A program made the translations under genes and the position numbers. Below, piece by piece: positions 1 through 43,730 of a stretch of DNA of 64,000 nt. Location of the stretch: NCBI GenBank assembly GCA_964016885.1, contig OZ024743.1, positions 162,998,001 to 163,062,000 on the forward strand, in the 5' to 3' direction. Within the stretch, counting starts at the first letter, position 1; every line of letters begins with the position of its first letter. Source of the DNA: Eledone cirrhosa. Its lineage: Eukaryota. The notes under the pieces are model-generated. The model did not search any database. It saw only the letters and a list, made by a program, of their open reading frames with translations, and had not been told where the DNA came from.

Positions 1-730
1 CTTTGAACATGGCTGCGACTGTGGCTCCTGAGACCAGATTTGCTCAAGCAAATTTTTCCACACTCAGGGCACTTCAATTCAATGGAGACACCGATCGTTT
101 CGAGAGATACACCAGGGCATTGCTTACGCACATCCCATTTGATCTTCTCGTGCTCTATGCGTCTGTCCTCAAAATTATGGACCCCATCATTCACCATTCC
201 ACGCCAAGTTTCTCTTTCAAGAGCTTCTATCTCCCAGTCAGCCATCATCAAACCAGTTTTTTTCAATGTGTCCTTTACGCAATCCTTGAATCGGAGCTTT
301 GGTTTGTGAGGTGGTCTCTTACCCCCACAAAGCTCGCCATACAAGAGTTGTTTTGGGATTCGATCATCCTCCATTCTTCCGAGGTGTCTGGTCCATCGCA
401 AACGCCGTTGATGGATGATACTCTCAATGCTCCGACACTCACTTCTCTCAAGGACCTCAAAATCACTCACATGCATCTGCCACTTGATTCCGAGCATCTT
501 TCTGAGACACTGCTGGTGAAACCGTTCCAGTCTGTGGATATGCTGTTTGTAGGCAACCCATGTCTCACATGCATACAACAAAGCTGACAGTACACATGCA
601 GCATACACTCTCACCTTGGTCCTCATTGTGATTCCTCGCCTGCACCAAAGACGGTTGTTGAGCCTTCCAAATGACTCACTTCCCCTACTAACACATAGAC
701 CAACATCTGCATCCAGAGAGCAGGTCACAC
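1..730 (-). mobile_element. RTE-clade LINE, 3' part of ORF2 (post-RT region plus C2H2 zinc finger), 5'-truncated, one frameshift
   Basis: Manual minus-strand translation gives TKVRVYAACVLS/LLYACETW...LERFHQQCLRKMLGIKW...RRLRWTRHLGRMEDDRIPKQLLYGEL...KLRFKDCVKDTLK...CPECGKICLSKSGLRSHSRSH, the typical RTE C-terminus; runs off the window start. Confidence 0.85.
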
Positions 731-794
731 TCAGAATACTCCCCAAATTATCAATTGAGATTGGGAGACGGTAGAAGGATAATAAAGAGAATGA

Positions 795-1636
795 GAGAGG
801 GATGTGTAGAAGTATGAAGTTGGAGGGTGAGATGTGATAGGGATCAGGAGCTGTAAGGTCTGAAACAGCTGCTGTATTTGGTTGGTGTTGCATTTTCGGC
901 CAATGCTGTGGAATGAGTGGAAGATACTAAGTAGGAATTGTTGAAATTGTGGAGTTGGGTAGTAAAAGGTAGTACAGCTGCTGTGATTGGTTAGTATAGC
1001 ATGGTCGGCTAATGCTATCTTTAAGTTGGTGGGGTGGGGGTGCTGAGGCTGCAGAGGGCCGATGGGCTGCCTCGGGGTGGGCGATGGGGGAAGGGAAAAA
1101 CGAGCGAGGAGGGGGATCGATGGTGGAAGGAAGTGATGGGAGGGGACGGGAGGAAGAGGAAAGCATGGGGGGGGGGGGGGGGGCAGGTACATCTGCCTAT
1201 GTAAGCTGAGGTTTCCCCTATCTTGTTCGGCAAGTGGGGTTTTTCAGCCCTTGTTTTCTTCTTCCCCCTGTCTCCTCCTTTCACTTCCTTCCACCGTCGA
1301 TCTTCTTCCTCGTTCGTTTTTTTTCCCCTTTCGCCTACCCCGAGGCGGCCCATCGGGCCTCTGTATCCTCGGTACCCCCACCCCAGTAGCTTGAAGATGG
1401 CATTGGCCGATTGCGCTAACTAATCATAGCAGCTGTGTTGGACCCCAGAGATTTTGTATTGCTTTTTGCTGCCCAATTCTACAATTTCAATAATTCTTGT
1501 TTGGTGTCTTCTATTCTCAACTCATTCTACAGGATTGGCCGAAGGAGCAGCACCGACTAGATGTAGCGGGTATTTTGGACTTTGTAGTTTTTGTTTTTTG
1601 TCACATCTCACTTTCCATGTTTTTGTGTATCTTTCT
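795..1636 (+). repeat. Long imperfect inverted repeat (arms ~795-1165 and ~1253-1636) predicted to fold as a G.U-rich RNA hairpin
   Basis: Arms align by hand over ~370 bp; nearly all differences are G.T pairs on the + strand; spacer has a G17 run and two small hairpins. Confidence 0.9.
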
Positions 1637-1669
1637 GTATGTACATAAATCTGTATACATACCCGCACA

Positions 1670-1789
<120 letters not shown>

Positions 1790-2078
1790 AGAAAGTAAGT
1801 CCATATAATCATTTGATAAAATATATACAGTATTTCTCCTCCCAATCAGCATAATCAACTACATAAAAAATCAATTAAACGGGGCTATAAGTTTAAAATG
1901 TACCTATGAAGAAATAATAGATAAATAAATGATAGCTATTTATCCACGATCAACAGCCACAGAAGATTTACCTAGTATTTCTAATAGCCCGTAGAAACTG
2001 ACTAGACACATAGCCAACCATACACAATTAGGTACAAAATCAAAGCTAGAAGAAAAAATGTACATAAACATACCAAAA
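1790..2078 (-). repeat. Diverged copy of the PLE terminal segment also present at 11706-11980
   Basis: Shared blocks gataaaatatatac, ctcccaatcagcataat, gtagaaactgacta, aaccatacacaattaggt, tagaagaaa..tgtacata; abuts (TA)n. Confidence 0.65.
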
Positions 2079-2079
2079 T

Positions 2080-2166
<87 letters not shown>

Positions 2167-2583
2167 GAATATATATATATATATATTCCTGGTTCTAAGC
2201 AGAACGAAAACCTGTTGATAAACTGAGTCCTCTGTTCAGTCACCAATACCACGATCTTGCCATTCAAGTAAGTCTGATATTTGATTTCGGATTCAGAGAA
2301 ACACTTTAAACGTATGCCCGTTTGATTTGTCCAGGTGTATTTTTCTCAACCTGATTAGTTCTATCGTTCCTTTGGTATATATTGTGTGTTAGTTTAGCCT
2401 ATCACAATGTTCGATTTATCAAGCTATTTAAACATATGTTATAACTCAGACCTATCTTATCGAGTGCTTTGCTAACTCATCACTTCATATAAGTAGGCCG
2501 AATTTACTTGCAAACCGCCAGAGATTCGATTTTACTGATTTCCAATTATATATATATATATATTCAAGAAGTTATATATATAT

Positions 2584-2703
2584 ATAGGAAAAAGTATGAC
2601 CCCGACGGCAGAGCTCAAGCCGTTTCGACGGCTATTTCTATGAGTCCAGAAATAGCCGTCGAAACGGTTTGAGCTCTGCCGTCGGGGTCATATTTTTTCC
2701 TAT
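2584..2703. repeat. 56-bp-arm hairpin containing the 3' half of a hammerhead motif
   Basis: Arms 2584-2639 and 2648-2703, 8-nt loop, 2 mismatches; right arm reads GAAA-cgg..ccg-TC-gggg. Confidence 0.85.
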
Positions 2704-3172
2704 TTCCCACTCTACTACCCTAAGTACTGAGTACTCTGGTGCGTTATGGTCCATCTGGTTCCTTACCACATTTCCTTTGATATGTATATATATATTTATA
2801 TATACATATATATATATATTATAGTTAAATATATATTCAGCGAGAATCGCATTTCGGCTGGTAGAAAAAGCGAAACGAAACGCAAAATCGTAGAAATGCT
2901 GGCAAGCGCTCCAATAGTTAAGAAAACTAGAGCTAAACAATATGTTAAAACGCCATACAAACTGAAAAGTGGTCAAGAAGGCATTAACCATCTAAGCCAA
3001 AAAACATCAAGCTAAACAGGTCAAACAAAATAAATGATATAAGTTATAAAAAAATATATATATATATATTTATATATATATATATATATATATTTATATC
3101 CAGGAAAAACTCGAACCGTTAAGTTCTTCTTTCCTGGTTATGTCAATATTTATAAAACAAACTTTGTATTGT

Positions 3173-3216
3173 ATTTTATCTGATGAGTGCGTGCCAAAGT
3201 TTTGGTACCCTTGAAA

Positions 3217-3222
<6 letters not shown>
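3173..3222 (+). ncRNA. Truncated type-I hammerhead motif running into (TA)n
   Basis: ttttat-CTGATGA-(gtgccaaa/tttggtac stem II)-GAAA-tata then microsatellite; 3' strand of stem I missing. Confidence 0.55.
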
Positions 3223-3278
<56 letters not shown>

Positions 3279-3699
3279 CATCCACACATACATATATCTA
3301 CTCAAGCACATACAAACATGTGTAAACATATATACGCACATCTACCTATGTACGCACGTATACACTGACGTACAAAAGTTCAGACACACGCACGCACACT
3401 TACGCTTAATCACACGTATAGGCATGATACTACAAGGTACATTGGGAGGTAGTAGGGGAACAGATATGAATAAATAAAATAAAATAAAAAACAAATATAA
3501 AAATATGAATAAAAGCATAAAGGGACGTGTTGACAACGAAAGGTGGGGTGGGGGGGGGGGGGGGGTAAATAACATTATAAAAAAATATATATATAAATAA
3601 ACATACGTAAAAATACACACACACACACACACACGCGCGCGCATAAAGGTATACATACAAACACACACATATAATATGTATATATATATGTCGTACGAG

Positions 3700-4179
3700 A
3701 ATAAATCCAGGATGCAGTTGCAGGAAGCCGGATGAATGCCCATTACAGGGCAAATGTAATACCAAATCCGTTGTATATGAGGCCAAAGTGACACCTTTGA
3801 TTAACAACCAGCCAGGAGTGAACGATATGTTGGCATGACTCAGGACAGGTTCAAAACCAGGTTTTATTCACATGTCGCCTTTTTAAAACACTCTGATAAA
3901 AGAACAGCAACGACTCTCGCAAATAAAGTGTGGGAATTCAAAGATAAAAACATCCCGTACTCTATCGATTGGTCTATCTTAGACCATTCGAGGGATTACA
4001 AAAGGGGCACAAAGAATTGTTCTTTGTGTACCACTGAAAAATTTAGAATTCTACAAAATTTTAAAGCCACTTCAACTTGCCTTAACTCCAAGACCGAGAT
4101 CTTCAGATGTTGTCCTCACCTGAAATCACATCTGCTCTGTAACTGGATTGACATTCCTACGATGACCCAACCACCTTGA
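3700..4179 (+). pseudogene. PLE GIY-YIG endonuclease fragment (5'-truncated, frameshifted)
   Basis: GCSCRKPDECPLQGKCNTKSVVYEAKV / YVGMTQDRFKTRF...CSLCTTEK...EIFRCCPH; homologous to the C-terminus of the ORFs at 21728 and 38654. Confidence 0.85.
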
Positions 4180-4407
4180 ACTTCTTCTTTGCTCTTTACG
4201 CCTTACATTCACTACGATTTTTATTACTCTCTGAACTCACTTTCTGTACCCTTATATTCTTTTTCTCCCTTATCTCCTCTTATATTTAAACTTTTTCCTA
4301 TGTTATTTATTTTTCTTATTGCCCCCTACTTTCTACCTTACCCTTTACATACCCAGCGCTATTTATTTCTGTGTGTATGTATGTATTTGTGTATATGTGT
4401 ATATATG

Positions 4408-4481
<74 letters not shown>

Positions 4482-4624
4482 ATTATATATATGCGTGTGT
4501 ATATATATGTATATATATGTGTGGGTATGTGTGTGTGTTTATATGTGTATATGTGTATTTTTATTTATGTGGTGATGTAACTTTTTGTATATATGTGTGT
4601 GTGTATATAAGTGTGTGTATATAC

Positions 4625-7226
4625 ATCTGGGGACATCTTGACACAGCAAACACATGATGGGAGAGAGAAAATCCTCAACGCTCACATGATGATGTGGACT
4701 GACATCCTAAAGCCAAGCAGACGCACTGCCAACAACTTCCAGGCGTCTAACAATGGCATACCACCCTTGTATGGGCTCCGCAAAGACCACAAGACAGTCG
4801 ACGACCCGACAACAGGACCACCAACTAGACCCGTATGCGGAGCTAATATAGCTAGCAACTACAGGATATCCTACTTCCTCTCAATGGTTATACGCCCCAT
4901 AATCAAGATGTCCCCAGATGTATGTGACAGTACAGAGGACCTCCTCAGCAGAATCAGTGAGTGCAACAAAAACAGGAACCTATCCAACTGCATAATAGGC
5001 AGTATGGATGTGGTATCACTGTACCCATCCATTAACATTGATTTTGCTGTGGAAAAATGTGTGGAGATGATCATTGAGAGTGAGGTGGAGTTCTGCGACG
5101 TCGACACAGACGAACTGGGCCTCCTACTTAGACTTACCTACGACACTGACTACCTAGACAGCCATGACCTTAGACGTTTCTGCCCTAGTAGACCCATAAG
5201 AGGTAGACTCCCCCACCATAACCTCAATGGCAAAAAAGACTCCCATGGGAAGATGGATTGGGTGGACCAAAGCTATACGGACCCCCCCCCAAAACAATGA
5301 TCAGGTAAGAAAAATGGTCGCACATGCAATAGGGGCTAGTATCAAAACTACCCTAAGGGCCACATATTCAAGTTCAACGAGAAGATCTACACCCAAAATG
5401 AGGGAGCAGCCATGGGCGTCAGCATAGCTGGTGATGTTGCCAACCTTTTTATGGTATGGTGGGAAAGGAGACTTAAAGATCTCCTTAATGAGAGCTCCAT
5501 AGACCTCATCATGTACTCTCGTTACGTAGACGATATCAATATAGTTATAAGAACATCCCCACTAGAGAGCACTAACAAGTTTGATTTAGAACGTAGCACA
5601 ATGGAAAGCATCCAGCAGATAGCTAATTCCATACACCAGAGTATAACTGTAACTATCGACTACCCTTCCAAACACCCTAACAATAGACTACCTATATTAG
5701 ACACGGAACTCTGGATTAACACTATAGACGAGAGAGCCCAAATTCTCCACTCACACTATGCTAAACCCATGGCCTCCAAATACCTGATACTCAAAAACTC
5801 AGCAATGTCCAGTAGTGCTAAGTTTAATATTCTGATCGCAGATTTGGTACGAGTGATGAAGAATGTGTCCCGCATGTGCGACCCAACAGCAATGGAAAGA
5901 CACATCCAACACTTCATCAACCGCATGCAGTTCTCTGGCTACAACCAAAGAGACAGAGTCAGAGTATACGAAGGAGCCATGGAGAAGTATAAGACCCTCA
6001 TAGAACTGGACACGAAAGGAATTTGCCCATTATACAGGAGCAAATCATGGAATAGCTTAGATAGGGCTAGACATAAGATAGGGAAAGCCACCTCATGGTA
6101 CGACAACCAGAGATACCAGAGTGTCATGTTTGTGGACGCTACCCCTGGAGGGAAATTAGCTAACCAGTGTAGAAAGGCCCTGAGAAAGACCCACTTAAAG
6201 ATTAAGGTGGTAGAAAAGCCAGGAACCACCATAAAATCCCTGATCAGCAAAGCCTACCCTTTTAAGAAAACCCACTGTACTAATAGGAAATGTATCATAT
6301 GTAAGGTAACCCTCCGGATAAACTGTAAAACTAGAAACGTAGTCTACAGCATAAGATGTACAGAGGGTACTTGCAGAAACATGACAACAACATACATAGG
6401 CGAGACAGCTCGTAGCATAGGTGAAAGGATAGACCAACACTGGGGGGAACTAAAAGGACGAAAAAACGGGTCAGTACTATACGAACATGCCAGACAACAA
6501 CACGACGGTAACATAGACAACATAGAAATTAGAATAATATCTAAACATAGAAATGACCCAGCAGATAGGCAAATCAGAGAGGCCAGTGAAATAGAACTTA
6601 GAAGGCCAAGACTAAACAGAAAGAATGAATGGAATAACAACAACACCCAAACAAACAACACTGACCTAAGAGAAGTATAAATAAATAAATAAATAGATAA
6701 ATAAATAAATAAATACATACACAAGCACAATAACAACAAACACATATAAACACACACTGGTAAACGTGGAATACATTAACCAATACACAGTCACCCAATC
6801 ACGAACACACATCAAACAAAACACTATACACACACGCAAACGCATGCGCAAAGAAGACAAAATAAAATAAACAACAAACAAATAAATAAATAAATATATA
6901 AACAGACTAAATAAAGATGGCGTAGACATACAATGTAACGGGAGGAAACAATAGCACCACTGACGATGTTGCAGATGTGCAACGAAAGAACTTTGATAAA
7001 CTATATATGTGTTTGTGTCCATATTGTATCTGTATTATTTTTGACCGTTGGTCAGTCAATGGCAACATTGAGGACCGAATAAATTAGATTACCGATATAA
7101 AAGACACGGAAACGAAAAGCGAAAACCAACCAAACAGTGAGTGTGTTCTGTTATTAATTCTGGCAATATTACACAAATATGACCCTCCCCAAGTATAACA
7201 ATATTTGTTTCGACACACGATTTCAT
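4625..7226 (+). mobile_element. PLE family A, 5'-truncated; RT + GIY-YIG pseudogene ~4630-6680 with frameshifts near 5213 and 5360; 3' UTR with HHR; ends in (TA)n
   Basis: PPLYGLRKDHK, TRPVCG, SMDVVSLYPSI, GAAMGVSIAG, YSRYVDD, LPILD, NVVYSIRC..C..YIGETARSIGERIDQH. Confidence 0.9.
6955..6996 (+). ncRNA. Minimal hammerhead-like motif of family A (copies 7492-7532 -, 12388-12428 - degenerate, 13250-13292 +)
   Basis: CTGACGA-t-gttgca(gatg)tgcaac-GAAA-gaac-TT; stems I and III weak. Confidence 0.6.
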
Positions 7227-7835: not shown

Positions 7836-10800
7836 TCTGATCTAATCCGCCGTTACCACTCTCTGAACTTTCCCCCCACACCCTCCCCTCCTCCCTCACA
7901 CACCCAAACCCCACCACTTGTTGTCACCATACCCCCTGACCTCCCCCTCTCCGCACCTGAGCGTCCACTCATCAGTAGAGGCCTTCTCTTCATACCCCAC
8001 ACTCTGCACAGCGACGAGTTCCGCACCCGAACGGAAGTCGAGCGATTCGTGCGACGCACGAAGCTACAAGCATTTCGATCAAACGACACCGGCTCCGAAC
8101 GCCCCAGACCCGTTTCTCGCCCTAGGCCGACGACCATCGTCTTGGACGCCGGTCCCAGGGCAATTTAGCACCCTGGACGCGTTCGTCGATGCCTGCGGCA
8201 TAACATCTCATGGGGCGAACTCCTCGCTCTCCGCTCCCTCCGTAGCCGAGATGACATCGTCATCAAACCGGCGGACAAGGGAGGCGCTGTGGTGGTGTGG
8301 TGCGCTGACCTCTACACGGCTGAAGCCCTCAGGCAGCTCCGTAACCCCCTCTTCTACCAACAACAAGTTTCCTCCACCATCCAACACCTTGTCTCCTCCT
8401 CCCTCCTACCGCTTCCCACCTCATCGTCCGCACCGCCCGCACCCCCACTATCTACTTCCTCCCCAAACTCCACAAACCCGACAACCCCAGCCGCCCCATC
8501 GTCTCCGCTTGCAACTGCCCTACCGAACTCATCTCCGCCTTTCTTGACTCCATCCCCCCCGTCACCACCCTCCCCTCCCACATCTCCGACACCAACCACG
8601 CCCTTCGCCTTTTCGACTCTTTCACCTTCCCACCCGGCCCACAACCCTTCCTCTTGACCCTAGATATCAAGTCGCTCTATACTGTCATCCCCCACTCCGA
8701 CGGCCTACGTGCCCTCAAGCACTACCTCGACCTTCGCCCCTCCCCATCTTCATCCACCCCCACCCTCCTTCGCCTCGCCGAGCTGGTCCTCATCCTCAAC
8801 TGTTTCTCCTTCTCGGGTGAGTTTTTCCAACAGGTCACGGAGGTAGCCATGGGCACAAGAATGGGCCCAAACTATGCCAACCTTTTCGTTGGCCATGTTG
8901 AGGCCCAAATCTTTGCCCAGTACACCGGCCTCACGCCCGAGATGTACGGTCGTTACATCGACGACTGTATCGGAGCCACGACCCTCACCCGAGAACAGCT
9001 CGACTCCTTTCTCTCCTTCTTCTGATCCTTCCACCCCTCCCTCCACTTCATCACCTCTATCTCCACCACCCACGACCACTTCTTAGACATCTCCGTCGCC
9101 TTCGACCCCTCCCACCACTCCCTCGTCACCTCCGCCTTCTTCAAACCCACCGACTCCCACTCCTACCTCGACTTCACCTCCACCCACCCCACACACACTA
9201 AACACTCTATTCCCTACTCCCAACTCCTCAGGATCCGCCGCCTCTGCAGCCGAGATGCTGATTTTGCGTCCCAGGCCCTTTCCCTAGTCAGCCATTTCAT
9301 CCGCAGAGGTCCCCCCCCCTCGTCCACACCGCCCTCACTCGCGCCCGTGCTGTCCACCGCTCCACCACCCTCACCCCACGCCACCACACACCCACCCACT
9401 GTCTCCCCTTCCTCATCACCTACCACCCCTCCATCCTCCCCCTCTACCGCACCATCCTCCGCCTCTTCCGACGCCTCCAGCCAACCCCTCCACCTCACAC
9501 ATCTTCCCAGCCCCACCACTCCCCTCCTTCAAACGCGCACGCAATCTCCACACCCTCCTCGTCCGCAGCTCTCTACCCCCCAATCCACGCTCTCTTTCCC
9601 ACCCCGGTTCCCTTCCCTCTTCCAGGCCTCGTTGCAACACCTGTCACCACATCGCCAACACCACCACCTTCCAGGGTCCCAACGGCCACTCTCTCTCTGT
9701 CCGGCACGCCTTCCGCTGCACCTCCTCCAACCTAGACTATGGACTTCGCTGCACGGAGTGTAGCGCAACCTACGTCGGACAACCTACTGGACTTCGCCTG
9801 GCGGACCGTTTCACCGAACACCTCCGGGATATTCGTCTCGGCGGGAGTTGCCCCATCGCCCGCCACTTTGGCTCCCCTGGACATTCCGCGCACCACCTCA
9901 CAGTCTGTGGCCTACTCCAGTGGCCTACTCCAATGCCACGGAACACTCGCCACCCTCCTCAGGGTCGAACAACGCACCATCTTCACTCTACAGACCCACA
10001 CTCCCCACCCCTATTCCTTTAGTCCCCCCCTCGCCCCCCTCCACATATCCCCCACTAACACCACTAATACACTCCTCCTTTTCATCGCCCACCCCACAAC
10101 TAACAATACTAACATCCCCCCCTCCCCCTATCACGCACACACCCACCGGTACATATATATACACGAACTCACACTATCCACACACCCTACTACCACCACT
10201 AACCCTCACCCACACATCCACTCCCACCACCCCACAACTAATATCATTAACATCCCCCGAACCCACGCACACGAACACACACACCCACCCACGCCCACTT
10301 ACACCACCCACTCTACACACCCTACCACCACTGACCCCCACTAACACACCCGCATTCAACCCTTTCCCCACCACCAGTATACTAACACCCACTAACACCC
10401 CCTTCACCACACTACACTCCCTCCACCGTCCCCCACACCTTTCTCTCCCTCTCCTCGCTCCACACACACACACACATCCCACTAACACCTCTACTAATAC
10501 ACCCCCCGCACGACCCCCTCCCCACTCCACCTTTCACACCTACCCATCCTCTACCCTGGCCACCGCACCTCCGCACACACTGGCACACCGAATTTCCCCA
10601 CCTGCCATTCTCCTCTACTGCTGCTATGCCTTGACCCTCTAACCACCTCTCCGCACACATAGCCACACAGCCCTCTCCACCTGTCATTCACCTCTACCCT
10701 CCTTCTGCCTTGACCCTCTGACAACTTCCTGTTGCGCGCGCGCCCCACATCTCCTCTCTTCCGACCAACTCAACCACGGATTACACACATTGGACATCGC

Positions 10801-13621: not shown

Positions 13622-15770
<2,149 letters not shown>

Positions 15771-20304: not shown

Positions 20305-21725
<1,421 letters not shown>

Positions 21726-21727
21726 AC

Positions 21728-23270
21728 ACGTTCTGACATCGGCTCTATCAGTAAGAAGATCCTGGATAGAGTTCTACCATCATTGCGGGCAGCCTCACCA
21801 CTTCCACTCTGGAGTAGAACATCTGAGGCAATATCATGGTTCCAAGAATTACCCGATAAACACCACACTCGCTTCCTGCAACTCGACATAGAAAACTACT
21901 ATGCCTCTATCTCGGAGCCCCTCCTGAAGGACGCAATTAACTTTGCCAGGAATTTTACCACCATCACCGATGCTGAGCAAGTTATTATCCTCCACGCTCG
22001 TAAGACCTTTCTATACCACGATGGATCTTACTGGATCAACAAGAAATCTCAGACCCCATTTGACGTTAGCATGGGGGCGAGTGACTCGGCTGAAATTAGC
22101 GACCTTGTGGGCCTGTACATCCTACATAACCTGAAGAACCTCTTTACCGGCCTAACGGGAGGTTTATACCGAGACGACGGCCTCTTCGCCCTGCATAAGG
22201 TTAGCCCCAGAACCACCGATGGGTTTCGGAAAAACTTAAGCTCTTTCTTCTCTAATCTAGGATTTAGTATAACTATAGATTCTAATTTGACTAGGGCCAA
22301 CTTCTTAGATGTCACTCTCGACCTAGATACTTCCCTCTATTACCCGTACCACAAACCTAACGAGTCCCTTAAATATATTAATGTTAATTCAAACCACCCC
22401 CAAAACATCACTGATAACCTAGTAAAAAGCGTCTCTATTAGAATATCTGGCCTCTCCGCCAACAAAGATATTTTTAATGCATCTGCCTCCTACTACAATG
22501 ACGCCCTAGCCCGTAGCGGATTTAAAGATAAGATAACTTACCTAGAAACCACCGCAAGATTGCAGAGGAGGAATAGACATAGGCAGATTAGCTGGTACAA
22601 CCCTCCCTTCAATAGAGAGGTATCTACTCCGATAGCTAGGATCTTCTTCACTTTACTGAAATTACACTTCCCCATACAACATAGGTACTACACCATCTTT
22701 AATAAGAACACTATAAGACTGTCTTACTCCACCACACCTAACCTAGCTAGGAATATAGCCAACCACAATTCTAAACTAAATAAGCCAACCACCTCCGAAA
22801 CCAATCCCCGGACTGGGGCTCTATGTAATTGCCTAAATAAGGAAGCATGCACACTTGAAAACAAATGCCTCACAAATGACATCGTATACAAATGCGATGT
22901 CATCTCAGGCACCGAGGATTGCAAAAAAACTTACATCGGCATGACCTCCAACAACTTTAAGACCCGTTGGTATGCCCATACCCACTCCTTCAGAAGACCG
23001 GATAAATCAAATCAGACAACACTCGCCTCCTACGTTTGGGACCTCAAAAGGAACTCCACCTCCTTCACGCTTAATTGGAAAATACTCCAGAAAGCGCGCT
23101 CTTACAACGGAGGACACAAGGGCTGCGACCTTTGTATTTCAGAGAGCTACGAAATTTTATTCGCCAAGGGCCCGCTACTGAACAAACTCTCTGAACACTG
23201 CCCGAACTGCATGCACAAGAACTTTGCAACTTTCAAACACTTTAAGCCAGTGTTAAAGCCCGATGGCTAA
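21728..23270 (+). CDS. PLE family G polyprotein (YRDD RT + GIY-YIG), 5'-truncated but otherwise open; 3' UTR extends to ~24140
   Basis: [80 protein letters not shown]. Confidence 0.9.
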
Positions 23271-29280: not shown

Positions 29281-29382
<102 letters not shown>

Positions 29383-30404
29383 TAAACAAATAATGAATAA
29401 ACAATTCCTTATATTAAACAAAAAAAGTTCATTATTTAACGATCGTTTCTAGGATATATATGTGTTAGAATTGGTATGCATATTCAACAGATCTATGTAC
29501 AAAATTATACAAAATTATACAAATTATCAAGATTAAATATACATACCAAACACATATATACGCCGTCTTCAGAAATAATGAAGTATATTTATTGATAATA
29601 ACAACAATTCAAAATTTCAGTTCAAAATTGACCAATGAAAACACAAAGGGTTAAATGCAGTTCGGTGTGTGTATATACATGTAAAACCCTTACACATATT
29701 TTACAAAAATGTATGTATAATTTGTATACGCATACTAAAAGGATGGATGCAAATACAAAATTTCAAGGTTAATGTCTCTGTAAGCTTACAATGCGCAGAT
29801 AAGATGCGCATTGATACTTATGAAATCAAGTATATAAATATATTTTTTCATACTCACACATATCAGTACAATCACACATACACGCGCGTATATGCATAAA
29901 TATACACATAACCACGAACATACAAACACACACACACCCCCACTCACATTTATATATGTGGATATAAAATCATAAGCACATGGATATTAATTCACTCACA
30001 TAAAACACTGGCACACACATTTTTAGATCAAGATACAGAAATTAGGTGGGAGGGGGGGGAAGGGTCAGTATTCAATTGTCTGAGCAGACTGCCTAATATA
30101 AATGTATCTATAAATTAAGAAAAATAAAAAATAAAAAAAATAAAACAATAAAATATAATAAATATAATATAATATACATACACATACAGATATATAGACA
30201 TACATACATGTACACACACATAGAAATATTTACGCATACACACATACCCACATACATATACAGTCATACACACACATACACTTACACGAACATACACATA
30301 CACATATATAAAGATATATATATACACACACACACACGCAACACATACACACATACACATATATATAAAAAATAAATAATAAAGATATATACCTATATAT
30401 ATAT

Positions 30405-30449
<45 letters not shown>

Positions 30450-30873
30450 CATACACATACATCTAAATATACATACACATACATACACACATACATGTAC
30501 ATACATGTACATACACATACGCACATCGATATACATATATATATATACACATATATATATATATATATACACACACATAGACATATAGATACATACACAC
30601 ACAACTTACATACACACATATATATATACATGTATATTCATACATAGAATTAGATATATAATCATACATATATATGCACTTACTTATACTCATATATACA
30701 AATACATACGCATCCATATATGCGTATATACATAAAAAACCACTACAACCTCACCTAACTCAGACATACAAATAAAAATAATAATAAAAAGGCATATGTA
30801 TATACATACACACACGCATTAATAGAGATATATATATACACACATACATACACATATATATATATATATATAT

Positions 30874-30916
<43 letters not shown>

Positions 30917-31177
30917 TACACTCATACATATATATATACACATATATACACATAGATATCCACACACTCATACCACCATAAATACGCATACAAACACCCA
31001 CATATACATATATATACACACGTACATATATATATATATATATACACACACATAAAAAACAGACATGCACATATATATATATATTTTTTTACACTTATAT
31101 ATACACATATTATATACACATACACAACCTCACTTATACACACATACACATAAGTTATATTATAATAATAAAGAATA

Positions 31178-31222
<45 letters not shown>

Positions 31223-31312
31223 CATACATACATACATATACATACATACATATAAACATATACATACATAAATACACACATACGAATAAAGACATATATT
31301 CACACATAGACA

Positions 31313-31383
<71 letters not shown>

Positions 31384-32507
31384 TTACATATACACAGACA
31401 CATATACACACTCACATATATATGTGTGTGTGTGCACACACACATATATACACACACACACACAAATACACATAAACACATACATATGCATACATGCACA
31501 CACACACACATATATATCACATAGATACGAAGATAAACATATAAATAGAGAGACATACATATATATACACAACACACATACACACACATACATACACACG
31601 CATATACATATACATATATATATATACATATATATATTCCTATATATACATGCATACACATACATACACATATATACACATACATACACATATACGTACA
31701 CACATTCACATACACATACATATATAATGCATATATACACATATATACATACATATACACACTCATATATACACACGCAATCTTACATTCATATTTGCAT
31801 GCGCATATATGTATTTTTATATTTAGATATAAATACCCAAACCTATATAGAAACCTACCTACATATATATTCATACATAGACGCTTACAAATACAGATGA
31901 TAATAGTATGGGGGAAAGGGGGGGTTTGGAGAAGGGGATCAAAGTAAATATATGTTTCAAGAAACTTAGAATATTTTCCGTATCTTTATCCAATGTATGT
32001 TCTTACATATTTTCAGTGTTAGGAAATACGACAAACAAGAACTAAGGCAAAATCTATGCATCTCAAAATAAATAAGTATACCATTAATCATATGTTAACT
32101 AAACCAAAGATAGTCAACATATTGATTTCTAAGGTGTAAATTAGTTAGGTTTATAATATTTGAAGCAGAATTTTGAAGTTAAACAGTAGTAGATTATTAA
32201 TTACAGTATAACTAAATTAAAGTTAATAACGTTATGGTATCAATATTAGGAAATGAATTTAGTAATAGGGAAAAAAAAACCCAAATAAAAATAAAATAAA
32301 GTATTACATCGGTAGTAGAATATAAATTATATGTTAACTAAATTAAAAATTATATATTTATTTCAATAGTATATGTTAATTAGGTATACAATACATAAAG
32401 CAGGTATTGTATTTCATCAATAGCATAATATAATTATATGCAAATAGAAATCAAAATTAATACGCATACATATACATATACATACACATACATATATACA
32501 TACATAT

Positions 32508-32552
<45 letters not shown>

Positions 32553-33075
32553 TACATACATACACATACACATACACACACACACATACACATACACATA
32601 TACATATACATATCTTTTTCAAAAAATTGCATAGAATATATTAACTAGGTATATATCCAAAACACATCCCATTCTATGATTACATGACATTCTGCAATTC
32701 GTCTGTATAAGGATACTAATTTTAAGCAAATTAAAATTAAAATTTTTAGGTTGATTAAAACTAAAACCAAATAATAAATATATTTCTAAAATGTATATTA
32801 ATTAGGTCTATAATACTAAAAATTATTTCTCTGTCATTGGATACACGATATTATTTTGTTATATTTTATCTGTAAAAGAGTTATAAAAAAAGGTTTAAAT
32901 AAATTAAAATTAATCTATAAATTAAATTACTAAGTATATATTAGTAATATTTAAAGGTTTTTCACAATTTATGATTACATAATATTTTATATTTTCATCT
33001 GTAATAAAATATTAATTAAATTAAATTTATAGGTTAACTAACATTTAAATTAAATTAATTTCTAAAATAATGTTA

Positions 33076-35137
33076 TTAATTAGGTTTATAATATTTAAAT
33101 GTTTTTTTTAGTTTATGATTACACGATATAATTAATTCCTGTCGTTTATTTAATAAGATATCCCTAGACTTCATTATTTCAAATAGTTCTTGGGAACATA
33201 ATCTACATTCATTTCTATTATTTTGATAAGGGGTGGCTCTTTTGAGCACACTCCAGGTCAAATCATATTTTATATTCTTATTTTTATAACTATTGATTTT
33301 TTCTGCTAGAGATGTTGTATTAGCCAGTGCGGCATTTTTAAAACTATGCTTGTGGGTATTAAACCTTGTCTTAAAATTGCTAGAGGTAGCTCCTATATAT
33401 GAGCAAATAGAATCTTTAGTTTTAACATTACATTTATAGACTATGTTGTTAACAAGACAATTCCCTTTTAATGGGCAGTTTGCTTTGTTTCTACAGTTAC
33501 ATCCTTTCGTTAATTCTGTATTTGAGGAGATATTATGGTTAATTTGATGTACTGGTGGTATATTTATGGTTTTCTTACATTTATATGCATTATATGCACT
33601 TATATTTTGTTTTATGTTATTTGTTGTAGAGTATGAGAATTTAACTGTAGACCTATTTAAGATTTGATGGTATTTGTGGTTTGGCGGGAAGTTTTTCTCA
33701 AGGATATAAAAAAATTTTTTAACAATATTATCCTTAACTTGTAAATTAAAAGGAGCATTATACCAAGTAACCCGTCTATTACGGTTTCTATGTTGTTTAT
33801 TATTTTTATTATTTTTATAGGTTGTATCGTGATTTTTACTAGGAGGATTAATGTTAATGATCTCACCACAACTATTTTTAGTTATATTTGTAGATTTAGG
33901 TGTTTTATCTTTTTTATTAGGAGTTTTATTATTAATATTTATTATAGTTGTATGATGAGTAGTTTTTTGAGAGTTACTATACTTTATATTAGAAGATTTA
34001 GTATTTTGGGGTATAGTGTGGGTGGCATTTAGGTGTGTACTTTTCATTTGGTGTTTGTTGGTAATATTATGTTGTATGCTTTCAGTATTTTTAGTAGAAG
34101 GTATATACTCTAATCTATTTTTGTGGCCACTTCTATCTAGAGCTTCGTTATAGAAGGTCGCATTTTTATCAAATACATCTTGGTTAGAAGAAAGGTTAGA
34201 AATTCTAAGTGATATATTATATGCAAGGTTTTTAAGGATAGATTTAGGGTGATTAGATTGTGAGTGTATGTAATGTAAGTTTTGGTTAGGTTTATGGTAA
34301 GGTTGGTAGATACCCGTAGCTAAATCTAAAGTTATATCTAGGAAATTTACTACTTTACTTGTTTTTTCAAAAGTAATATTAAGATTATAATAGTCTTTAA
34401 GGAAAGTTCTAATATGTTTTTTGTTTTTTTCGATTTCTGAAAGGCTAAGGTTGTTAGAAAGAAGAAGACAGTCATCACGATATAAACCACCTTTGAGGTG
34501 GGGAAAAGAGGCATTTATGTTGAAAAGGAGAAAGAGGCCCACAAGATCAGTAATTTGGGCGGAATCGCTTGAACCCATAGTAATATCAAAAAGATTACTG
34601 TATGTGTTTCTGGTCCAGTATTCATTCTGAAATTCAATAAGTGTTAGTCTAGCATGTGTAATAATGTTAATGTCATCCAAAGTTAAGTTAGATCTATTTT
34701 TAGCAAATATCAATGCTTTGTTCAGGAGTATAGGTGATATAGAAGAATAGTAATTATCTATATCAAATTGTAGGAAAGAAGCAGAAGATTTACACCTAAT
34801 ATTTTTAAACCAGTTAATTACCTGGGAGGTGTTTTCCCAGAGTGGTAAAATAACGTGTTTTCTTATTTGTGGGATGACTCTATCTAAAATTTTTTTGCTA
34901 ATTATTCCAATATCTGATTTGGAGGGACATATAAGTCTAATAGAAGGATTTGAGTTAAAGTTAGATTTGTGATCTTTCAGGTTGAAGTGTGGTCTTTTCA
35001 ATGCCAAAGGTTCAGTTCTATCTTCAATGTTTAGTTTTTTTACTATGTTGTGTGTTTTGTTGTTGATGTTGGTGAGTGACACATTATTAGATTTTTTATA
35101 ATTTTTTCTGAGTTCTTTATATATGAACTCGTTATAA

Positions 35138-35140
<3 letters not shown>
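33076..35140 (-). pseudogene. 5'-truncated inverted copy of the family H ORF
   Basis: Protein identical to the corresponding part of 38654-41095 except QITDL/QISDL and DNIVKK/DNIAKK. Confidence 0.95.
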
Positions 35141-35170
<30 letters not shown>

Positions 35171-35175
35171 ATGTA

Positions 35176-35224
<49 letters not shown>

Positions 35225-36350
35225 ATATGTATGTATATATGTATGTGTATGTATATGTATATGTATGCGTATTAATTTTGATTTCTATTTGCATATAATT
35301 ATATTATGCTATTGATGAAATACAATACCTGCTTTATGTATTGTATACCTAATTAACATATACTATTGAAATAAATATATAATTTTTAATTTAGTTAACA
35401 TATAATTTATATTCTACTACCGATGTAATACTTTATTTTATTTTTATTTGGGGTTTTTTTTCCCTATTACTAAATTCATTTCCTAATATTGATACCATAA
35501 CGTTATTAACTTTAATTTAGTTATACTGTAATTAATAATCTACTACTGTTTAACTTCAAAATTCTGCTTCAAATATTATAAACCTAACTAATTTACACCT
35601 TAGAAATCAATATGTTGACTATCTTTGGTTTAGTTAACATATGATTAATGGTATACTTATTTATTTTGAGATGCATAGATTTTGCCTTAGTTCTTGTTTG
35701 TCGTATTTCCTAACACTGAAAATATGTAAGAACATACATTGGATAAAGATACGGAAAATATTCTAAGTTTCTTGAAACATATATTTACTTTGATCCCCTT
35801 CTCCAAACCCCCCCTTTCCCCCATACTATTATCATCTGTATTTGTAAGCGTCTATGTATGAATATATATGTAGGTAGGTTTCTATATAGGTTTGGGTATT
35901 TATATCTAAATATAAAAATACATATATGCGCATGCAAATATGAATGTAAGATTGCGTGTGTATATATGAGTGTGTATATGTATGTATATATGTGTATATA
36001 TGCATTATATATGTATGTGTATGTGAATGTGTGTACGTATATGTGTATGTATGTGTATATATGTGTATGTATGTGTATGCATGTATATATAGGAATATAT
36101 ATATGTATATATATATATGTATATGTATATGCGTGTGTATGTATGTGTGTGTATGTGTGTTGTGTATATATATGTATGTCTCTCTATTTATATGTTTATC
36201 TTCGTATCTATGTGATATATATGTGTGTGTGTGTGCATGTATGCATATGTATGTGTTTATGTGTATTTGTGTGTGTGTGTGTATATATGTGTGTGTGCAC
36301 ACACACACATATATATATGTGAGTGTGTATATGTGTCTGTGTATATGTAA

Positions 36351-36433
<83 letters not shown>

Positions 36434-36523
36434 TGTCTATGTGTGAATATATGTCTTTATTCGTATGTGTGTATTTATGTATGTATATGTTTATATGTAT
36501 GTATGTATATGTATGTATGTATG

Positions 36524-36572
<49 letters not shown>

Positions 36573-36833
36573 TATTCTTTATTATTATAATATAACTTAT
36601 GTGTATGTGTGTATAAGTGAGGTTGTGTATGTGTATATAATATGTGTATATATAAGTGTAAAAAAATATATATATATATGTGCATGTCTGTTTTTTATGT
36701 GTGTGTATATATATATATATATATGTACGTGTGTATATATATGTATATGTGGGTGTTTGTATGCGTATTTATGGTGGTATGAGTGTGTGGATATCTATGT
36801 GTATATATGTGTATATATATATGTATGAGTGTA

Positions 36834-36864
<31 letters not shown>

Positions 36865-37290
36865 GTGTATATATATATATATATATATGTGTATGTATGT
36901 GTGTATATATATATCTCTATTAATGCGTGTGTGTATGTATATACATATGCCTTTTTATTATTATTTTTATTTGTATGTCTGAGTTAGGTGAGGTTGTAGT
37001 GGTTTTTTATGTATATACGCATATATGGATGCGTATGTATTTGTATATATGAGTATAAGTAAGTGCATATATATGTATGATTATATATCTAATTCTATGT
37101 ATGAATATACATGTATATATATATGTGTGTATGTAAGTTGTGTGTGTATGTATCTATATGTCTATGTGTGTGTATATATATATATATATGTGTATATATA
37201 TATATGTATATCGATGTGCGTATGTGTATGTACATGTATGTACATGTATGTGTGTATGTATGTGTATGTATATTTAGATGTATGTGTATG

Positions 37291-37333
<43 letters not shown>

Positions 37334-38155
37334 ATATATATATAGGTATATATCTTTATTATTTATTTTTTATATATATGTGTATGTGTGTATGTGTTGC
37401 GTGTGTGTGTGTGTATATATATATCTTTATATATGTGTATGTGTATGTTCGTGTAAGTGTATGTGTGTGTATGACTGTATATGTATGTGTGTATGTGTGT
37501 ATGCGTAAATATTTCTATGTGTGTGTACATGTATGTATGTCTATATATCTGTATGTGTATGTATATTATATTATATTTATTATATTTTATTGTTTTATTT
37601 TTTTTATTTTTTATTTTTCTTAATTTATAGATACATTTATATTAGGCAGTCTGCTCAGACAATTGAATACTGACCCTTCCCCCCCCTCCCACCTAATTTC
37701 TGTATCTTGATCTAAAAATGTGTGTGCCAGTGTTTTATGTGAGTGAATTAATATCCATGTGCTTATGATTTTATATCCACATATATAAATGTGAGTGGGG
37801 GTGTGTGTGTGTTTGTATGTTCGTGGTTATGTGTATATTTATGCATATACGCGCGTGTATGTGTGATTGTACTGATATGTGTGAGTATGAAAAAATATAT
37901 TTATATACTTGATTTCATAAGTATCAATGCGCATCTTATCTGCGCATTGTAAGCTTACAGAGACATTAACCTTGAAATTTTGTATTTGCATCCATCCTTT
38001 TAGTATGCGTATACAAATTATACATACATTTTTGTAAAATATGTGTAAGGGTTTTACATGTATATACACACACCGAACTGCATTTAACCCTTTGTGTTTT
38101 CATTGGTCAATTTTGAACTGAAATTTTGAATTGTTGTTATTATCAATAAATATAC

Positions 38156-38310
38156 TTCATTATTTCTGAAGACGGCGTATATATGTGTTTGGTATGTATA
38201 TTTAATCTTGATAATTTGTATAATTTTGTATAATTTTGTACATAGATCTGTTGAATATGCATACCAATTCTAACACATATATATCCTAGAAACGATCGTT
38301 AAATAATGAA
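38156..38310 (+). ncRNA. Type-I hammerhead with 116-nt stem II, family H (copies 44555-44709 +, 29428-29582 -)
   Basis: ttcattattt-CTGAAGA-[116 nt; tatatatgtgtt/aacacatatata and tggtatgtatatttaa/ttgaatatgcatacca pair]-GAAA-cgatcg-TT-aaataatgaa; 10-bp perfect stem I. Confidence 0.85.
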
Positions 38311-38653
38311 CTTTTTTTGTTTAATATAAGGAATTGTTTATTCATTATTTGTTTAATATTTTATCTTGACTCTGTATACCGTTTATCTTTCACCGAAAGT
38401 GGTTTTTCATTACATCTCTTCTTTCCATGATATCCGGAATACATTGAGTTCTTCATACGGATTGGACACTACCGTAAACTCTTGGTAGATTTATCTACAT
38501 AATTTTGCTCCTATTTTCACGGAAATATTTGTATTTTTGTACTGTATGTGTGTATTAATTTTATATTTATGTATAAACATATATATATGTATGATTTTGT
38601 AAACCCATATACATTTAGTTGAGCTCTTTCAATTGTCCATCATCCATATCACA

Positions 38654-41095: not shown

Positions 41096-41618
41096 TAACA
41101 TTATTTTAGAAATTAATTTAATTTAAATGTTAGTTAACCTATAAATTTAATTTAATTAATATTTTATTACAGATGAAAATATAAAATATTATGTAATCAT
41201 AAATTGTGAAAAACCTTTAAATATTACTAATATATACTTAGTAATTTAATTTATAGATTAATTTTAATTTATTTAAACCTTTTATTATAACTCTTTTACA
41301 GATAAAATATAACAAAATAATATCGTGTATCCAATGACAGAGAAATAATTTTTAGTATTATAGACCTAATTAATATACATTTTAGAAATATATTTATTAT
41401 TTGGTTTTAGTTTTAATCAACCTAAAAATTTTAATTTTAATTTGCTTAAAATTAGTATCCTTATACAGACGAATTGCAGAATGTCATGTAATCATAGAAT
41501 GGGATGTGTTTTGGATATATACCTAGTTAATATATTCTATGCAATTTTTTGAAAAAGATATGTATATGTATATGTGTATGTGTATGTGTGTGTGTGTATG
41601 TGTATGTGTATGTATGTA

Positions 41619-41665
<47 letters not shown>

Positions 41666-42791
41666 ATATGTATGTATATATGTATGTGTATGTATATGTA
41701 TATGTATGCGTATTAATTTTGATTTCTATTTGCATATAATTATATTATGCTATTGATGAAATACAATACCTGCTTTATGTATTGTATACCTAATTAACAT
41801 ATACTATTGAAATAAATATATAATTTTTAATTTAGTTAACATATAATTTATATTCTACTACCGATGTAATACTTTATTTTATTTTTATTTGGGTTTTTTT
41901 TTCCCTATTACTAAATTCATTTCCTAATATTGATACCATAACGTTATTAACTTTAATTTAGTTATACTGTAATTAATAATCTACTACTGTTTAACTTCAA
42001 AATTCTGCTTCAAATATTATAAACCTAACTAATTTACACCTTAGAAATCAATATGTTGACTATCTTTGGTTTAGTTAACATATGATTAATGGTATACTTA
42101 TTTATTTTGAGATGCATAGATTTTGCCTTAGTTCTTGTTTGTCGTATTTCCTAACACTGAAAATATGTAAGAACATACATTGGATAAAGATACGGAAAAT
42201 ATTCTAAGTTTCTTGAAACATATATTTACTTTGATCCCCTTCTCCAAACCCCCCCTTTCCCCCATACTATTATCATCTGTATTTGTAAGCGTCTATGTAT
42301 GAATATATATGTAGGTAGGTTTCTATATAGGTTTGGGTATTTATATCTAAATATAAAAATACATATATGCGCATGCAAATATGAATGTAAGATTGCGTGT
42401 GTATATATGAGTGTGTATATGTATGTATATATGTGTATATATGCATTATATATGTATGTGTATGTGAATGTGTGTACGTATATGTGTATGTATGTGTATA
42501 TATGTGTATGTATGTGTATGCATGTATATATAGGAATATATATATGTATATATATATATGTATATGTATATGCGTGTGTATGTATGTGTGTGTATGTGTG
42601 TTGTGTATATATATGTATGTCTCTCTATTTATATGTTTATCTTCGTATCTATGTGATATATATGTGTGTGTGTGTGCATGTATGCATATGTATGTGTTTA
42701 TGTGTATTTGTGTGTGTGTGTGTATATATGTGTGTGTGCACACACACACATATATATATGTGAGTGTGTATATGTGTCTGTGTATATGTAA

Positions 42792-42830
<39 letters not shown>

Positions 42831-42920
42831 TGTCTATGTGTGAATATATGTCTTTATTCGTATGTGTGTATTTATGTATGTATATGTTTATATGTATGTA
42901 TGTATATGTATGTATGTATG

Positions 42921-42958
<38 letters not shown>

Positions 42959-43224: not shown

Positions 43225-43255
<31 letters not shown>

Positions 43256-43681: not shown

Positions 43682-43730
<49 letters not shown>

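What the first reader, a model, noticed from the sequence alone, without database searches (positions are those of the whole stretch)
795..1636. Long hairpin whose mismatches are almost all G.U with ADAR-like context: possible A-to-I hyper-edited RNA retro-inserted into the genome
Seen: the two ~370-bp arms differ at many sites. By hand count roughly 65-70 differences give G.U pairs in a + strand transcript, about 3 give A.C, and about 10 or fewer are transversions. One stretch (left-arm reverse complement tactaccttttactacccaactccac... vs right arm tattgctttttgctgcccaattctac...) is 14/14 G.U. The wobble Gs in both arms are nearly always preceded by T, A or C and almost never by an original G, while GA dinucleotides survive. 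Known: ADARs convert A to I (read as G) in long dsRNA, disfavour a 5' G, and are very active in coleoid cephalopods. Neutral DNA decay, CpG loss or RIP-like processes would give G.U and A.C about equally. Inference: either a perfect fold-back RNA was hyper-edited on both arms and then reverse-transcribed into a (TA)n site, or this is an hpRNA-like structural RNA selected to keep pairing. The other long fold-backs in the window are near-perfect, so this one has a different history.
Basis: partly seen in the sequence, partly recalled or inferred. Interest (0 to 1): 0.88.

Follow-up and report, generated by a model that had tools for sequence, protein, structure and literature searches.

The report
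ADAR-edited hairpin fossilised in genome
A folded-back piece of a Penelope-like retrotransposon carries 96 A-to-G changes on one strand in the sequence pattern of the RNA-editing enzyme ADAR, so it is likely a heavily edited double-stranded RNA that was copied back into the inherited genome, keeping the edits of a single RNA molecule.

Summary
Confirmed. The arms differ by 74 G.U, 3 A.C and 9 transversions. They are an inverted duplication of the 3' UTR of a Penelope-like retrotransposon (Hydra-clade motifs). Against the family, both arms changed A>G on the + strand: 96 of 272 As, versus 3 T>C. The 44 other copies examined show 1.3%. Edited share by 5' neighbour is T 52%, A 38%, C 19%, G 7%, the ADAR order. 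At 31 self-complementary TA/TA steps, exactly one strand is changed in 27 (p=4e-5), so the arms were likely edited while paired to each other. Best reading: an ADAR-hyperedited fold-back RNA, reverse-transcribed into germline DNA. No donor copy or target-site duplication was found, and reads cover only the left arm. A second, shorter hyperedited copy lies on another contig. The mechanism has precedent in retroviral proviruses and in L1-made pseudogenes in cell culture. This scan noted similar cases in two other genomes (unchecked). My ten literature searches found no inherited Penelope-like case and no report of the TA/TA exclusion. No function is implied.

The parts
751..1254 (-). Inverted copy of the Penelope-like 3' UTR (family columns 85-609); 69 A>G, 0 T>C, 5 G>A, 1 C>T on the + strand; 21-nt and 7-nt deletions
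751..795 (-). Part of the left segment with no partner in today's right arm, yet edited (8 of 27 As; 9.3 expected at the paired rate): the duplex was likely longer when edited
796..1166 (-). Paired left arm; 49 of 137 As changed to G (3 of these are shared with the right arm and probably came from the source copy)
1167..1183 (+). G17 run in place of a 15-nt A/G tract of the family; 10 of 11 As changed against 3.1 expected, 3 nt longer; likely editing plus homopolymer slippage
   Evidence: one more G in contigs X1, X2
1184..1251 (-). Loop: antisense of family columns 85-151; 2 of the 10 As after the tract changed (2 of 11 in columns 85-151, 4.4 expected, P=0.10)
1252..1254 (.). Head-to-head junction with 3-nt microhomology; the junction 22-mer is unique in the genome at up to 1 mismatch
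1252..1636 (+). Right arm: sense copy of the 3' UTR (family columns 171-565); 27 A>G of 86 As, 3 T>C, 1 G>A, 2 C>T; 5-nt and 6-nt deletions; stops well short of the family's usual 3' end (columns 987/1064)
1637..1790 (.). Degenerate TA/CA-rich sequence running into (TA)n; 3' flank; full-length family 3' ends are also followed by (TA)n
1..748 (-). Left flank: broken LINE (RTE-like by recalled C-terminal motifs; Pfam gave only weak C2H2 hits); not A>G-shifted against reads of its family; its continuation is absent from the window

Best explanation
The hairpin is an inverted duplication of a Penelope-like retrotransposon 3' UTR in which both arms carry A-to-G changes on the + strand, likely because a fold-back RNA was edited by ADAR to near saturation and then likely reverse-transcribed into germline DNA. 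Steps: (1) shown: both arms derive from one source copy (6 shared private changes) joined head-to-head. (2) inferred: this was transcribed on the + strand and formed a duplex of at least 395 bp, probably 440 or more. (3) strongly inferred: ADAR converted about a third of the As to inosine while the arms were paired; editing one A of a UA/UA step turns the partner's 5' pair into U.I and would block it. (4) inferred: a reverse transcriptase, likely the element's own acting in trans, copied I as G, starting inside the right arm next to TA-rich DNA and ending at column 609 of the left arm. The cDNA either landed at a new site (about 70% of this branch) or replaced its own locus (about 30%). (5) inferred: afterwards about 14 neutral substitutions, 4 deletions and G-run slippage accumulated. 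It is a dead fragment with no sign of function.
For: Polarity: 96 A>G, 3 T>C, 6 G>A, 3 C>T on the + strand; 44 other loci give A>G 137 of 10,894 As and T>C 274 of 15,170 Ts, highest single values 3.9% and 7.1%. 5' neighbour in the paired zone: T 37/71, A 27/72, C 6/32, G 3/43, Fisher p=1e-5; ADARs prefer 5' U and A over C and G and stop at 50-60% of As (PMC3113232). TA/TA steps: left only 14, right only 13, both 3, neither 1, p=3.9e-5; from the two arms alone 13/15/2/2, p=4.4e-5. A toy simulation with hand-set weights gave exactly-one at 51% of steps for independent editing (0 of 500 runs reached the observed 87%) and 79% for one duplex (63 of 500 did). Segments now deleted from one arm are edited in the other, so the deletions likely came later. 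Not CpG decay: under C>T polarity CpG sites are not favoured, 10 of 32. Deaminase plus dsRNA-binding exons lie together on C25 and, with a sub-cutoff dsrm hit, on C1. The edited left arm (706-1234) is in contigs of sample S1 with 0-1 differences, and one or two reads of sample S3 lie on 753-940 at 98% or more. A second copy, L057 1452-1575, has 11 T>C and 0 A>G with the same context. Precedent: 3 of 235 L1-made pseudogene insertions carried ADAR-type changes in inverted Alus (PMC11702581).
Against: No unedited donor: the junction and a private-variant motif occur only here, and none of 44 loci has the private changes together. No target-site duplication over 5 nt. The right arm lacks the family's usual 3' end, so priming must have been internal (shown in vitro for a different clade, PMC11167929) or the end was lost. 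The loop is not significantly less edited (P=0.10), so an intramolecular hairpin is not separated from a two-strand duplex. The G17 tract is over-edited for ADAR alone (P=2e-6). The 3' G preference is not significant (30/68 against 66/204, p=0.11). The junction and right arm were covered by no read or contig at 98%, and one X2 contig leaves the window sequence at 1238 for another family-like sequence, at a high-copy 31-mer where contigs branch.
Confidence: 0.78

Rival explanations
1. Sense and antisense transcripts of one locus annealed as two molecules, both were edited by ADAR, and the reverse transcriptase jumped from the sense to the antisense strand at the 3-nt microhomology. The inversion and the edits then arose in one event with no inverted donor.
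For: Explains the unique junction, the TA/TA exclusion, editing of the overhang, and edits in the loop and purine tract (12 of 22 As in columns 85-170).
Against: Needs bidirectional transcription plus a jump onto a base-paired strand. The loop proper is, if anything, under-edited (2 of 11 against 4.4). 5' inversions without edits are common in this family (8 of 29 loci), so an ordinary inverted donor is easy to come by.
Confidence: 0.08
2. The edited duplex was the element's own replication intermediate: an antisense RNA folded back, primed cDNA synthesis on itself, and ADAR edited both the RNA arm and the DNA arm of that hybrid hairpin before it was copied and integrated.
For: Geometry fits: the loop lies on the antisense arm, the right arm ends inside the span of the left, and the edited strand is the one that would be made first. 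Self-priming on an antisense template was proposed for head-to-head Penelope repeats (PMC3846280). ADAR2 edits both strands of hybrids in vitro (PMC5389660). No donor is needed.
Against: Hybrids reacted at least 20 times slower than RNA duplexes in that study (0.02 against 0.4 or more per min), yet both arms are edited to a similar extent (36% and 31%) with similar context. In L057 the extra segment lies on the other arm relative to the edited strand. The geometric match has a 50% chance prior.
Confidence: 0.07
3. A DNA-level process (adenine deamination on single-stranded DNA, an error-prone reverse transcriptase, or strand-biased mutation) made the A>G changes without ADAR.
For: Six A>T changes against two T>A on the + strand could hint at misincorporation at A; nothing here shows inosine directly.
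Against: Single-strand damage favours C>T (general knowledge), which is nearly absent (3). An error-prone polymerase or independent damage cannot make the two arms avoid each other at TA/TA steps. The flank and 44 sister copies are unaffected. ADAR2 gave no product on an all-DNA duplex (PMC5389660).
Confidence: 0.03
4. Assembly artefact: the junction or the right arm is mis-joined or mis-called.
For: No read or contig covered 1261-1660 at 98%; one contig diverges at 1238.
Against: The left arm is reproduced in S1 contigs and thinly in S3. The right arm shares 6 private changes with the left and its edits are anti-correlated with the left arm's, which base-calling error cannot produce. Contig depth was only 2-7 and the tool warns that holes prove nothing.
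Confidence: 0.02
5. A functional hairpin RNA (hpRNA-like) under selection to stay paired, accumulating G.U pairs.
For: The + strand still folds into a long stable stem.
Against: Single copy. Only one of the two routes to G.U was used (96 A>G, 3 C>T). 5' context and TA/TA exclusion have no structural reason. No Rfam match reaches its gathering score. The sequence is a retrotransposon 3' UTR.
Confidence: 0.01

Closest known systems
ADAR-edited inverted Alus in L1-made processed pseudogene insertions (bioRxiv 2024, PMC11702581; passages read)
   Same: Edited inverted-repeat RNA copied into chromosomal DNA by a retrotransposon reverse transcriptase; rare (3 of 235 there).
   Different: There: somatic, cultured human cells, host mRNA with Alus, L1 enzyme. 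Here: an inherited assembly copy seen thinly in a second individual, a Penelope-like 3' UTR, no poly(A) or target-site duplication. Their Fig. S8 was not seen.
A-to-G hypermutated avian retroviral proviruses (Hajjar and Linial 1995; Felder 1994), seen only as summarised in the review PMC12925331; the 1995 paper is not held
   Same: Near 50% of As changed to G in an inverted-repeat region and fixed in DNA by reverse transcription.
   Different: Exogenous retrovirus in culture; here an endogenous non-viral retroelement fragment with both arms kept side by side.
Hydra-clade Penelope-like elements (Craig et al. 2021, PMC8557442; section 11 and passages read)
   Same: RT followed by a GIY-YIG-like domain, CxCX5C linker, (TA)n targets, inverted 5'-truncated copies.
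   Different: No editing is mentioned in the passages read; this copy has no ORF and is cut at both ends; clade not tested by a tree.
APOBEC G-to-A editing fossils in genomic retroelements (PMC2873906, passages read; Carmi 2011 and Knisbacher 2016 recalled, not read)
   Same: A deaminase signature on a retroelement intermediate preserved in the genome.
   Different: APOBEC acts on single-stranded cDNA and gives G>A; here A>G on both arms of a duplex.

Membership tests
ADAR hyperediting record | A>G only, on one strand | tested here: met
   96 A>G, 3 T>C, 6 G>A, 3 C>T
ADAR hyperediting record | 5' neighbour U, A preferred over C, G | tested here: met
   T 37/71, A 27/72, C 6/32, G 3/43; rule from PMC3113232
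ADAR hyperediting record | 3' G preference (ADAR2) | tested here: inconclusive
   30/68 against 66/204, p=0.11
ADAR hyperediting record | Changes made in a duplex and confined to it | tested here: met
   TA/TA exclusion between arms; LINE flank not shifted. Exceptions: 751-795 and the G17 tract are edited but unpaired today
ADAR hyperediting record | Extent up to about 50-60% of As | tested here: met
   96 of 272, 35%
ADAR hyperediting record | Host encodes ADAR | tested here: met
   A_deamin plus dsrm exons on C25 (dsrm over cut-off) and C1 (dsrm under cut-off); three loci fetched in part
ADAR hyperediting record | Inosine seen in the RNA | not testable with these tools
   The event is ancient and no RNA run was listed
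Hydra-clade Penelope-like element (source family) | RT followed by C-terminal GIY-YIG | tested here: met
   L022 RT piece 44% identical to the 830-aa window ORF at 38603; L030 C-terminal piece 41% to the ORF at 21705, which has a sub-cutoff GIY-YIG hit; Atlas neighbours include an RT cluster. The family pieces have no Pfam hit of their own
Hydra-clade Penelope-like element (source family) | CxCX5C linker | tested here: met
   In translations of L006, L026 and others
Hydra-clade Penelope-like element (source family) | RWK-like and DKT motifs | tested here: inconclusive
   Similar motifs in the related ORF at 38603; N-terminus of this exact family not fetched
Hydra-clade Penelope-like element (source family) | Insertion into (TA)n | tested here: met
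   Family 3' ends run into (TA)n
Hydra-clade Penelope-like element (source family) | Canonical hammerhead ribozyme; placement on an RT tree | not tested
   No hammerhead among Rfam matches in 1-5000, which holds only UTR pieces; no tree built
Target-primed retro-insertion at a new site | Target-site duplication | tested here: not met
   No direct repeat over 5 nt at the two ends; often not discernible for microsatellite-targeting elements (PMC8557442)
Target-primed retro-insertion at a new site | Unedited donor elsewhere | tested here: not met
   a lost, diverged or unassembled donor is not excluded
Target-primed retro-insertion at a new site | Empty site in another haplotype or species | not testable with these tools
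   No relatives held; no such joint listed
Selected structural hairpin RNA | Conserved copies with compensatory changes and both routes to G.U | tested here: not met
   Single copy; A>G only

The most novel reading that the evidence does not exclude
ADAR attacks the double-stranded replication intermediate of Penelope-like elements (an antisense RNA that self-primes or pairs with sense RNA), and rare edited copies such as this one and L057 are strand-labelled snapshots of that intermediate. A genome-wide set would read out which strand templates Penelope retrotransposition, an open question, and give in vivo single-molecule maps of ADAR action on both strands of a duplex in the germline.
Probability: 0.15. 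Interest if true: 0.82.

Novelty: new variant of a known kind. Interest (0 to 1): 0.6.

Why it matters
It is sequence evidence that A-to-I editing can become heritable through reverse transcription, and that ADAR met retrotransposon duplex RNA in cells that feed the germline. Because both arms of one duplex are preserved, it shows how edits on opposite strands relate within one molecule: nearly every UA/UA step is edited on exactly one strand (27 of 31). That statistic is a cheap, consensus-free test for ADAR fossils in any genome. The events are rare here (1 of 45 copies of this UTR segment; 1 clear case from four two-site probes over a 3' tail with about 14,400 matches), so they are a record of a process, not a major mutational force.

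Tried and rejected
Donor search: junction 22-mer, private-variant motif and edited-arm motifs found only the window; 44 family loci held no donor. Rest of the left arm sought in 20 kb upstream and rest of the LINE in the window: not found. Rfam: 35 matches, none at gathering score. First inverted-repeat background was swamped by microsatellites and was redone with masking. Probes for more edited 3' tails: one search gave 2 hits, each with only the 2 forced changes in that tail. One search gave 17 hits: L057 again plus 16 judged not hyperedited, most from an older subfamily. One search gave 1 hit with 3 A>G, two of them forced. The denominator 14,404 was measured for the sense 27-mer only. No RNA holder listed. 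RAD runs X4 and X6 gave no usable cover of the edited arms. PDB sequence search of the RT piece: no match. AT/AT steps showed a weak positive association (6 both, 6 one, 12 neither, p=0.03), probably shared context; not used. CpG decay and RIP-like C>T rejected by polarity. Mitochondrial-type strand bias considered and dropped once the family was identified. The species was not identified.

Full report
Observation. The window lies at G000:C4:162998001-163062000 in a 3.0-Gb genome. Aligning the reverse complement of 796-1166 to 1252-1636 gives 271 identical columns, 74 differences that form G.U in a + strand transcript, 3 that form A.C, 9 transversions and 42 gap columns (p=1e-18). A first local alignment with ragged ends gave 68, 2 and 23. 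The + strand folds at -594 kcal/mol and the - strand at -382. Among 69 inverted-repeat alignments in about 280 kb after masking simple repeats, no other shows a skew within homologous sequence.

What the arms are. A genome search scored 40 of 2,724 candidates and found single-arm relatives at 80-85% to the right arm and 69-76% to the left. I fetched 29 of these, then the other 10 and 5 more, 44 in all. Upstream of the match many carry the end of an ORF with an RT core, a CxCX5C linker and a GIY-YIG-like domain. The pieces have no Pfam hit of their own but are 44% and 41% identical to longer ORFs of this type in the window, one with a sub-cutoff GIY-YIG hit. With (TA)n at the 3' ends this fits Hydra-clade Penelope-like elements as described in PMC8557442 (section 11); no tree was built. 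The hairpin is the 3' UTR twice: 751-1254 is the reverse complement of family columns 85-609, and 1252-1636 is columns 171-565, joined at a 3-nt microhomology. Inverted 5' pieces are common in the family (8 of the first 29 loci) and in Penelope-like elements generally. The left flank is a broken LINE, RTE-like by recalled motifs; the right flank is TA-rich microsatellite.

Polarity. Against the majority of 29 copies, the right arm has 27 A>G, 3 T>C, 1 G>A, 2 C>T, and the left segment, read on the + strand, 69 A>G, 0 T>C, 5 G>A, 1 C>T. That is 96 of 272 scored As. Three of them are shared by both arms and probably came from the source copy, together with three other shared private changes. The 44 other loci give A>G at 137 of 10,894 As and T>C at 274 of 15,170 Ts; none exceeds 3.9% or 7.1%.

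Context. In the paired zone the edited share by 5' neighbour is T 37/71, A 27/72, C 6/32, G 3/43 (G against the rest p=1e-5). ADARs prefer 5' U and A over C and G and stop at 50-60% of As in long duplexes (PMC3113232; abstract, first part of Results and passages). The 3' G preference is in the expected direction but not significant (p=0.11).

One duplex. At a TA step each strand offers an A with a 5' T. Of 31 such steps the left arm alone is changed at 14, the right alone at 13, both at 3 and neither at 1 (Fisher p=3.9e-5; independence predicts about 9 both and 7 neither). Using the two arms only, the table is 13, 15, 2, 2. A toy simulation with hand-set weights reached the observed share in 0 of 500 runs with independent arms and in 63 of 500 when a 5' U.I pair slows editing tenfold. 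I infer that the arms were edited while paired to each other and nearly to completion. Independent damage, polymerase error and sequencing error do not predict this.

What does not fit simply. Bases 751-795 have no partner today but are edited at the paired rate (8 of 27), so the duplex was longer or the partner was another strand. The loop is only weakly under-edited (2 of 11, 4.4 expected, P=0.10). The purine tract that became G17 is over-edited (10 of 11, 3.1 expected) and 3 nt longer, which needs slippage. No donor was found: the junction, a private-variant motif and two edited motifs occur only here. A donor 2-4% diverged could escape a 22-mer search, and the junction could have been altered during copying. 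There is no target-site duplication over 5 nt. The right arm ends at column 565, not at the usual 987 or 1064; internal initiation is shown in vitro for a Poseidon element (PMC11167929, first quarter of the text).

Reality of the DNA. Contigs of three runs of one sample carry the edited left arm with 0-1 differences (706-1238 in two, 893-1166 in the third); this sample may be the source of the assembly. One or two RAD reads of a second sample lie on 753-940 at 98% or more. The junction and right arm had no cover at 98%, and one contig leaves the window at 1238, at a high-copy 31-mer. The anti-correlation and shared private changes tie the right arm to the left regardless.

Enzyme and frequency. 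Deaminase domains occur at four places; on C25 a dsRNA-binding motif lies just upstream, and on C1 a sub-cutoff one. A 27-mer of the family's 3' tail has 14,404 exact matches. Four probes forcing G at two TA sites gave 2, 1, 17 and 1 hits. One is clearly hypermutated: L057 1452-1575 (G000:C1:170830204-170830327) has 11 T>C and 0 A>G in 124 nt. One of the 11 is a common variant and two were forced by the probe; 28 unselected tails have 0-3. Its antisense 5' context is T 6/10, A 3/11, C 1/7, G 1/13, the G being the common variant. Its 60-nt inverted arm is unedited and its duplex partner is unclear. The other hits were chance or an older subfamily.

Mechanism. Best: an inverted copy was transcribed, the fold-back RNA was hyperedited by ADAR, and a reverse transcriptase wrote it into germline DNA, at a new site or over its own locus (0.78). 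Two one-step rivals keep ADAR but need no donor: a sense-antisense RNA pair with a template jump (0.08), or a self-primed antisense RNA-cDNA hairpin (0.07). The latter was proposed for head-to-head Penelope repeats (PMC3846280, passages) and matches this copy's geometry. But hybrids were edited at least 20 times slower than RNA duplexes and all-DNA duplexes not at all (PMC5389660, abstract and passages), and L057 has the opposite geometry. Non-ADAR mutation, artefact and structural selection together get about 0.06.

Known and new. ADAR-type changes in inverted Alus were seen in 3 of 235 L1-made pseudogene insertions in cultured cells (PMC11702581, passages; its supplementary figure was not seen and may show both arms). 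Avian proviruses with near 50% A>G in an inverted repeat date from the 1990s (review PMC12925331, passages). Ten searches of the held library (listings, plus passages of PMC2873906 and PMC5974252) showed no inherited Penelope-like case and no report of UA/UA exclusion between strands; subscription papers are not searched, and I recall genome surveys of APOBEC fossils that may mention A>G clusters. Two unchecked notes of this scan describe similar fossils in other genomes; none matched this sequence or this genome. Verdict: real, a new variant of a known kind, without function but unusually informative. Interest 0.6.

Noticed in passing
L057 1393-1977 (G000:C1:170830145-170830729): Second ADAR-like hypermutated Penelope 3' tail (11 T>C, 0 A>G in 124 nt) with an unedited 60-nt inverted arm, and an older copy lying tail-to-tail across (TA)n that has 3 A>G in the matching stretch.
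   Followed up: partly
window 2584-2777; 14,404 matches genome-wide: Short fold-back unit made of the family's last 60-135 nt is far more abundant than the UTR segment studied (22 exact matches of a 24-mer); may be a non-autonomous element.
   Followed up: partly
window 29374-44763: Large near-perfect inverted structure holding two Hydra-like Penelope ORFs (33076-35271 minus, 731 aa; 38603-41095 plus, 830 aa) with microsatellite-rich arms; looks like a young inverted insertion.
   Followed up: no
window 4611-6680, 8345-10022, 14610-15368, 21705-23270, 46704-47741, 57852-59291, 62971-63591: Several further Penelope-like RT or GIY-YIG ORFs of different lineages within 64 kb.
   Followed up: no
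window 50941-55283: Helitron-like Rep/PIF1 helicase fragments (Pif1 2B domain, E 1e-14).
   Followed up: no
L054 6150-8249 (G000:C6:13644405-13646174): Adenosine-deaminase domain in only two large pieces, with no dsRNA-binding motif among the frames scanned; gene type not determined.
   Followed up: no
L060-L073: Older subfamily of the 3' tail, about 80% identical, with shared diagnostic changes.
   Followed up: no
L005 1088 and L044 2359: Family copies with internal inversions or template switches at other UTR positions, none with editing skew.
   Followed up: partly
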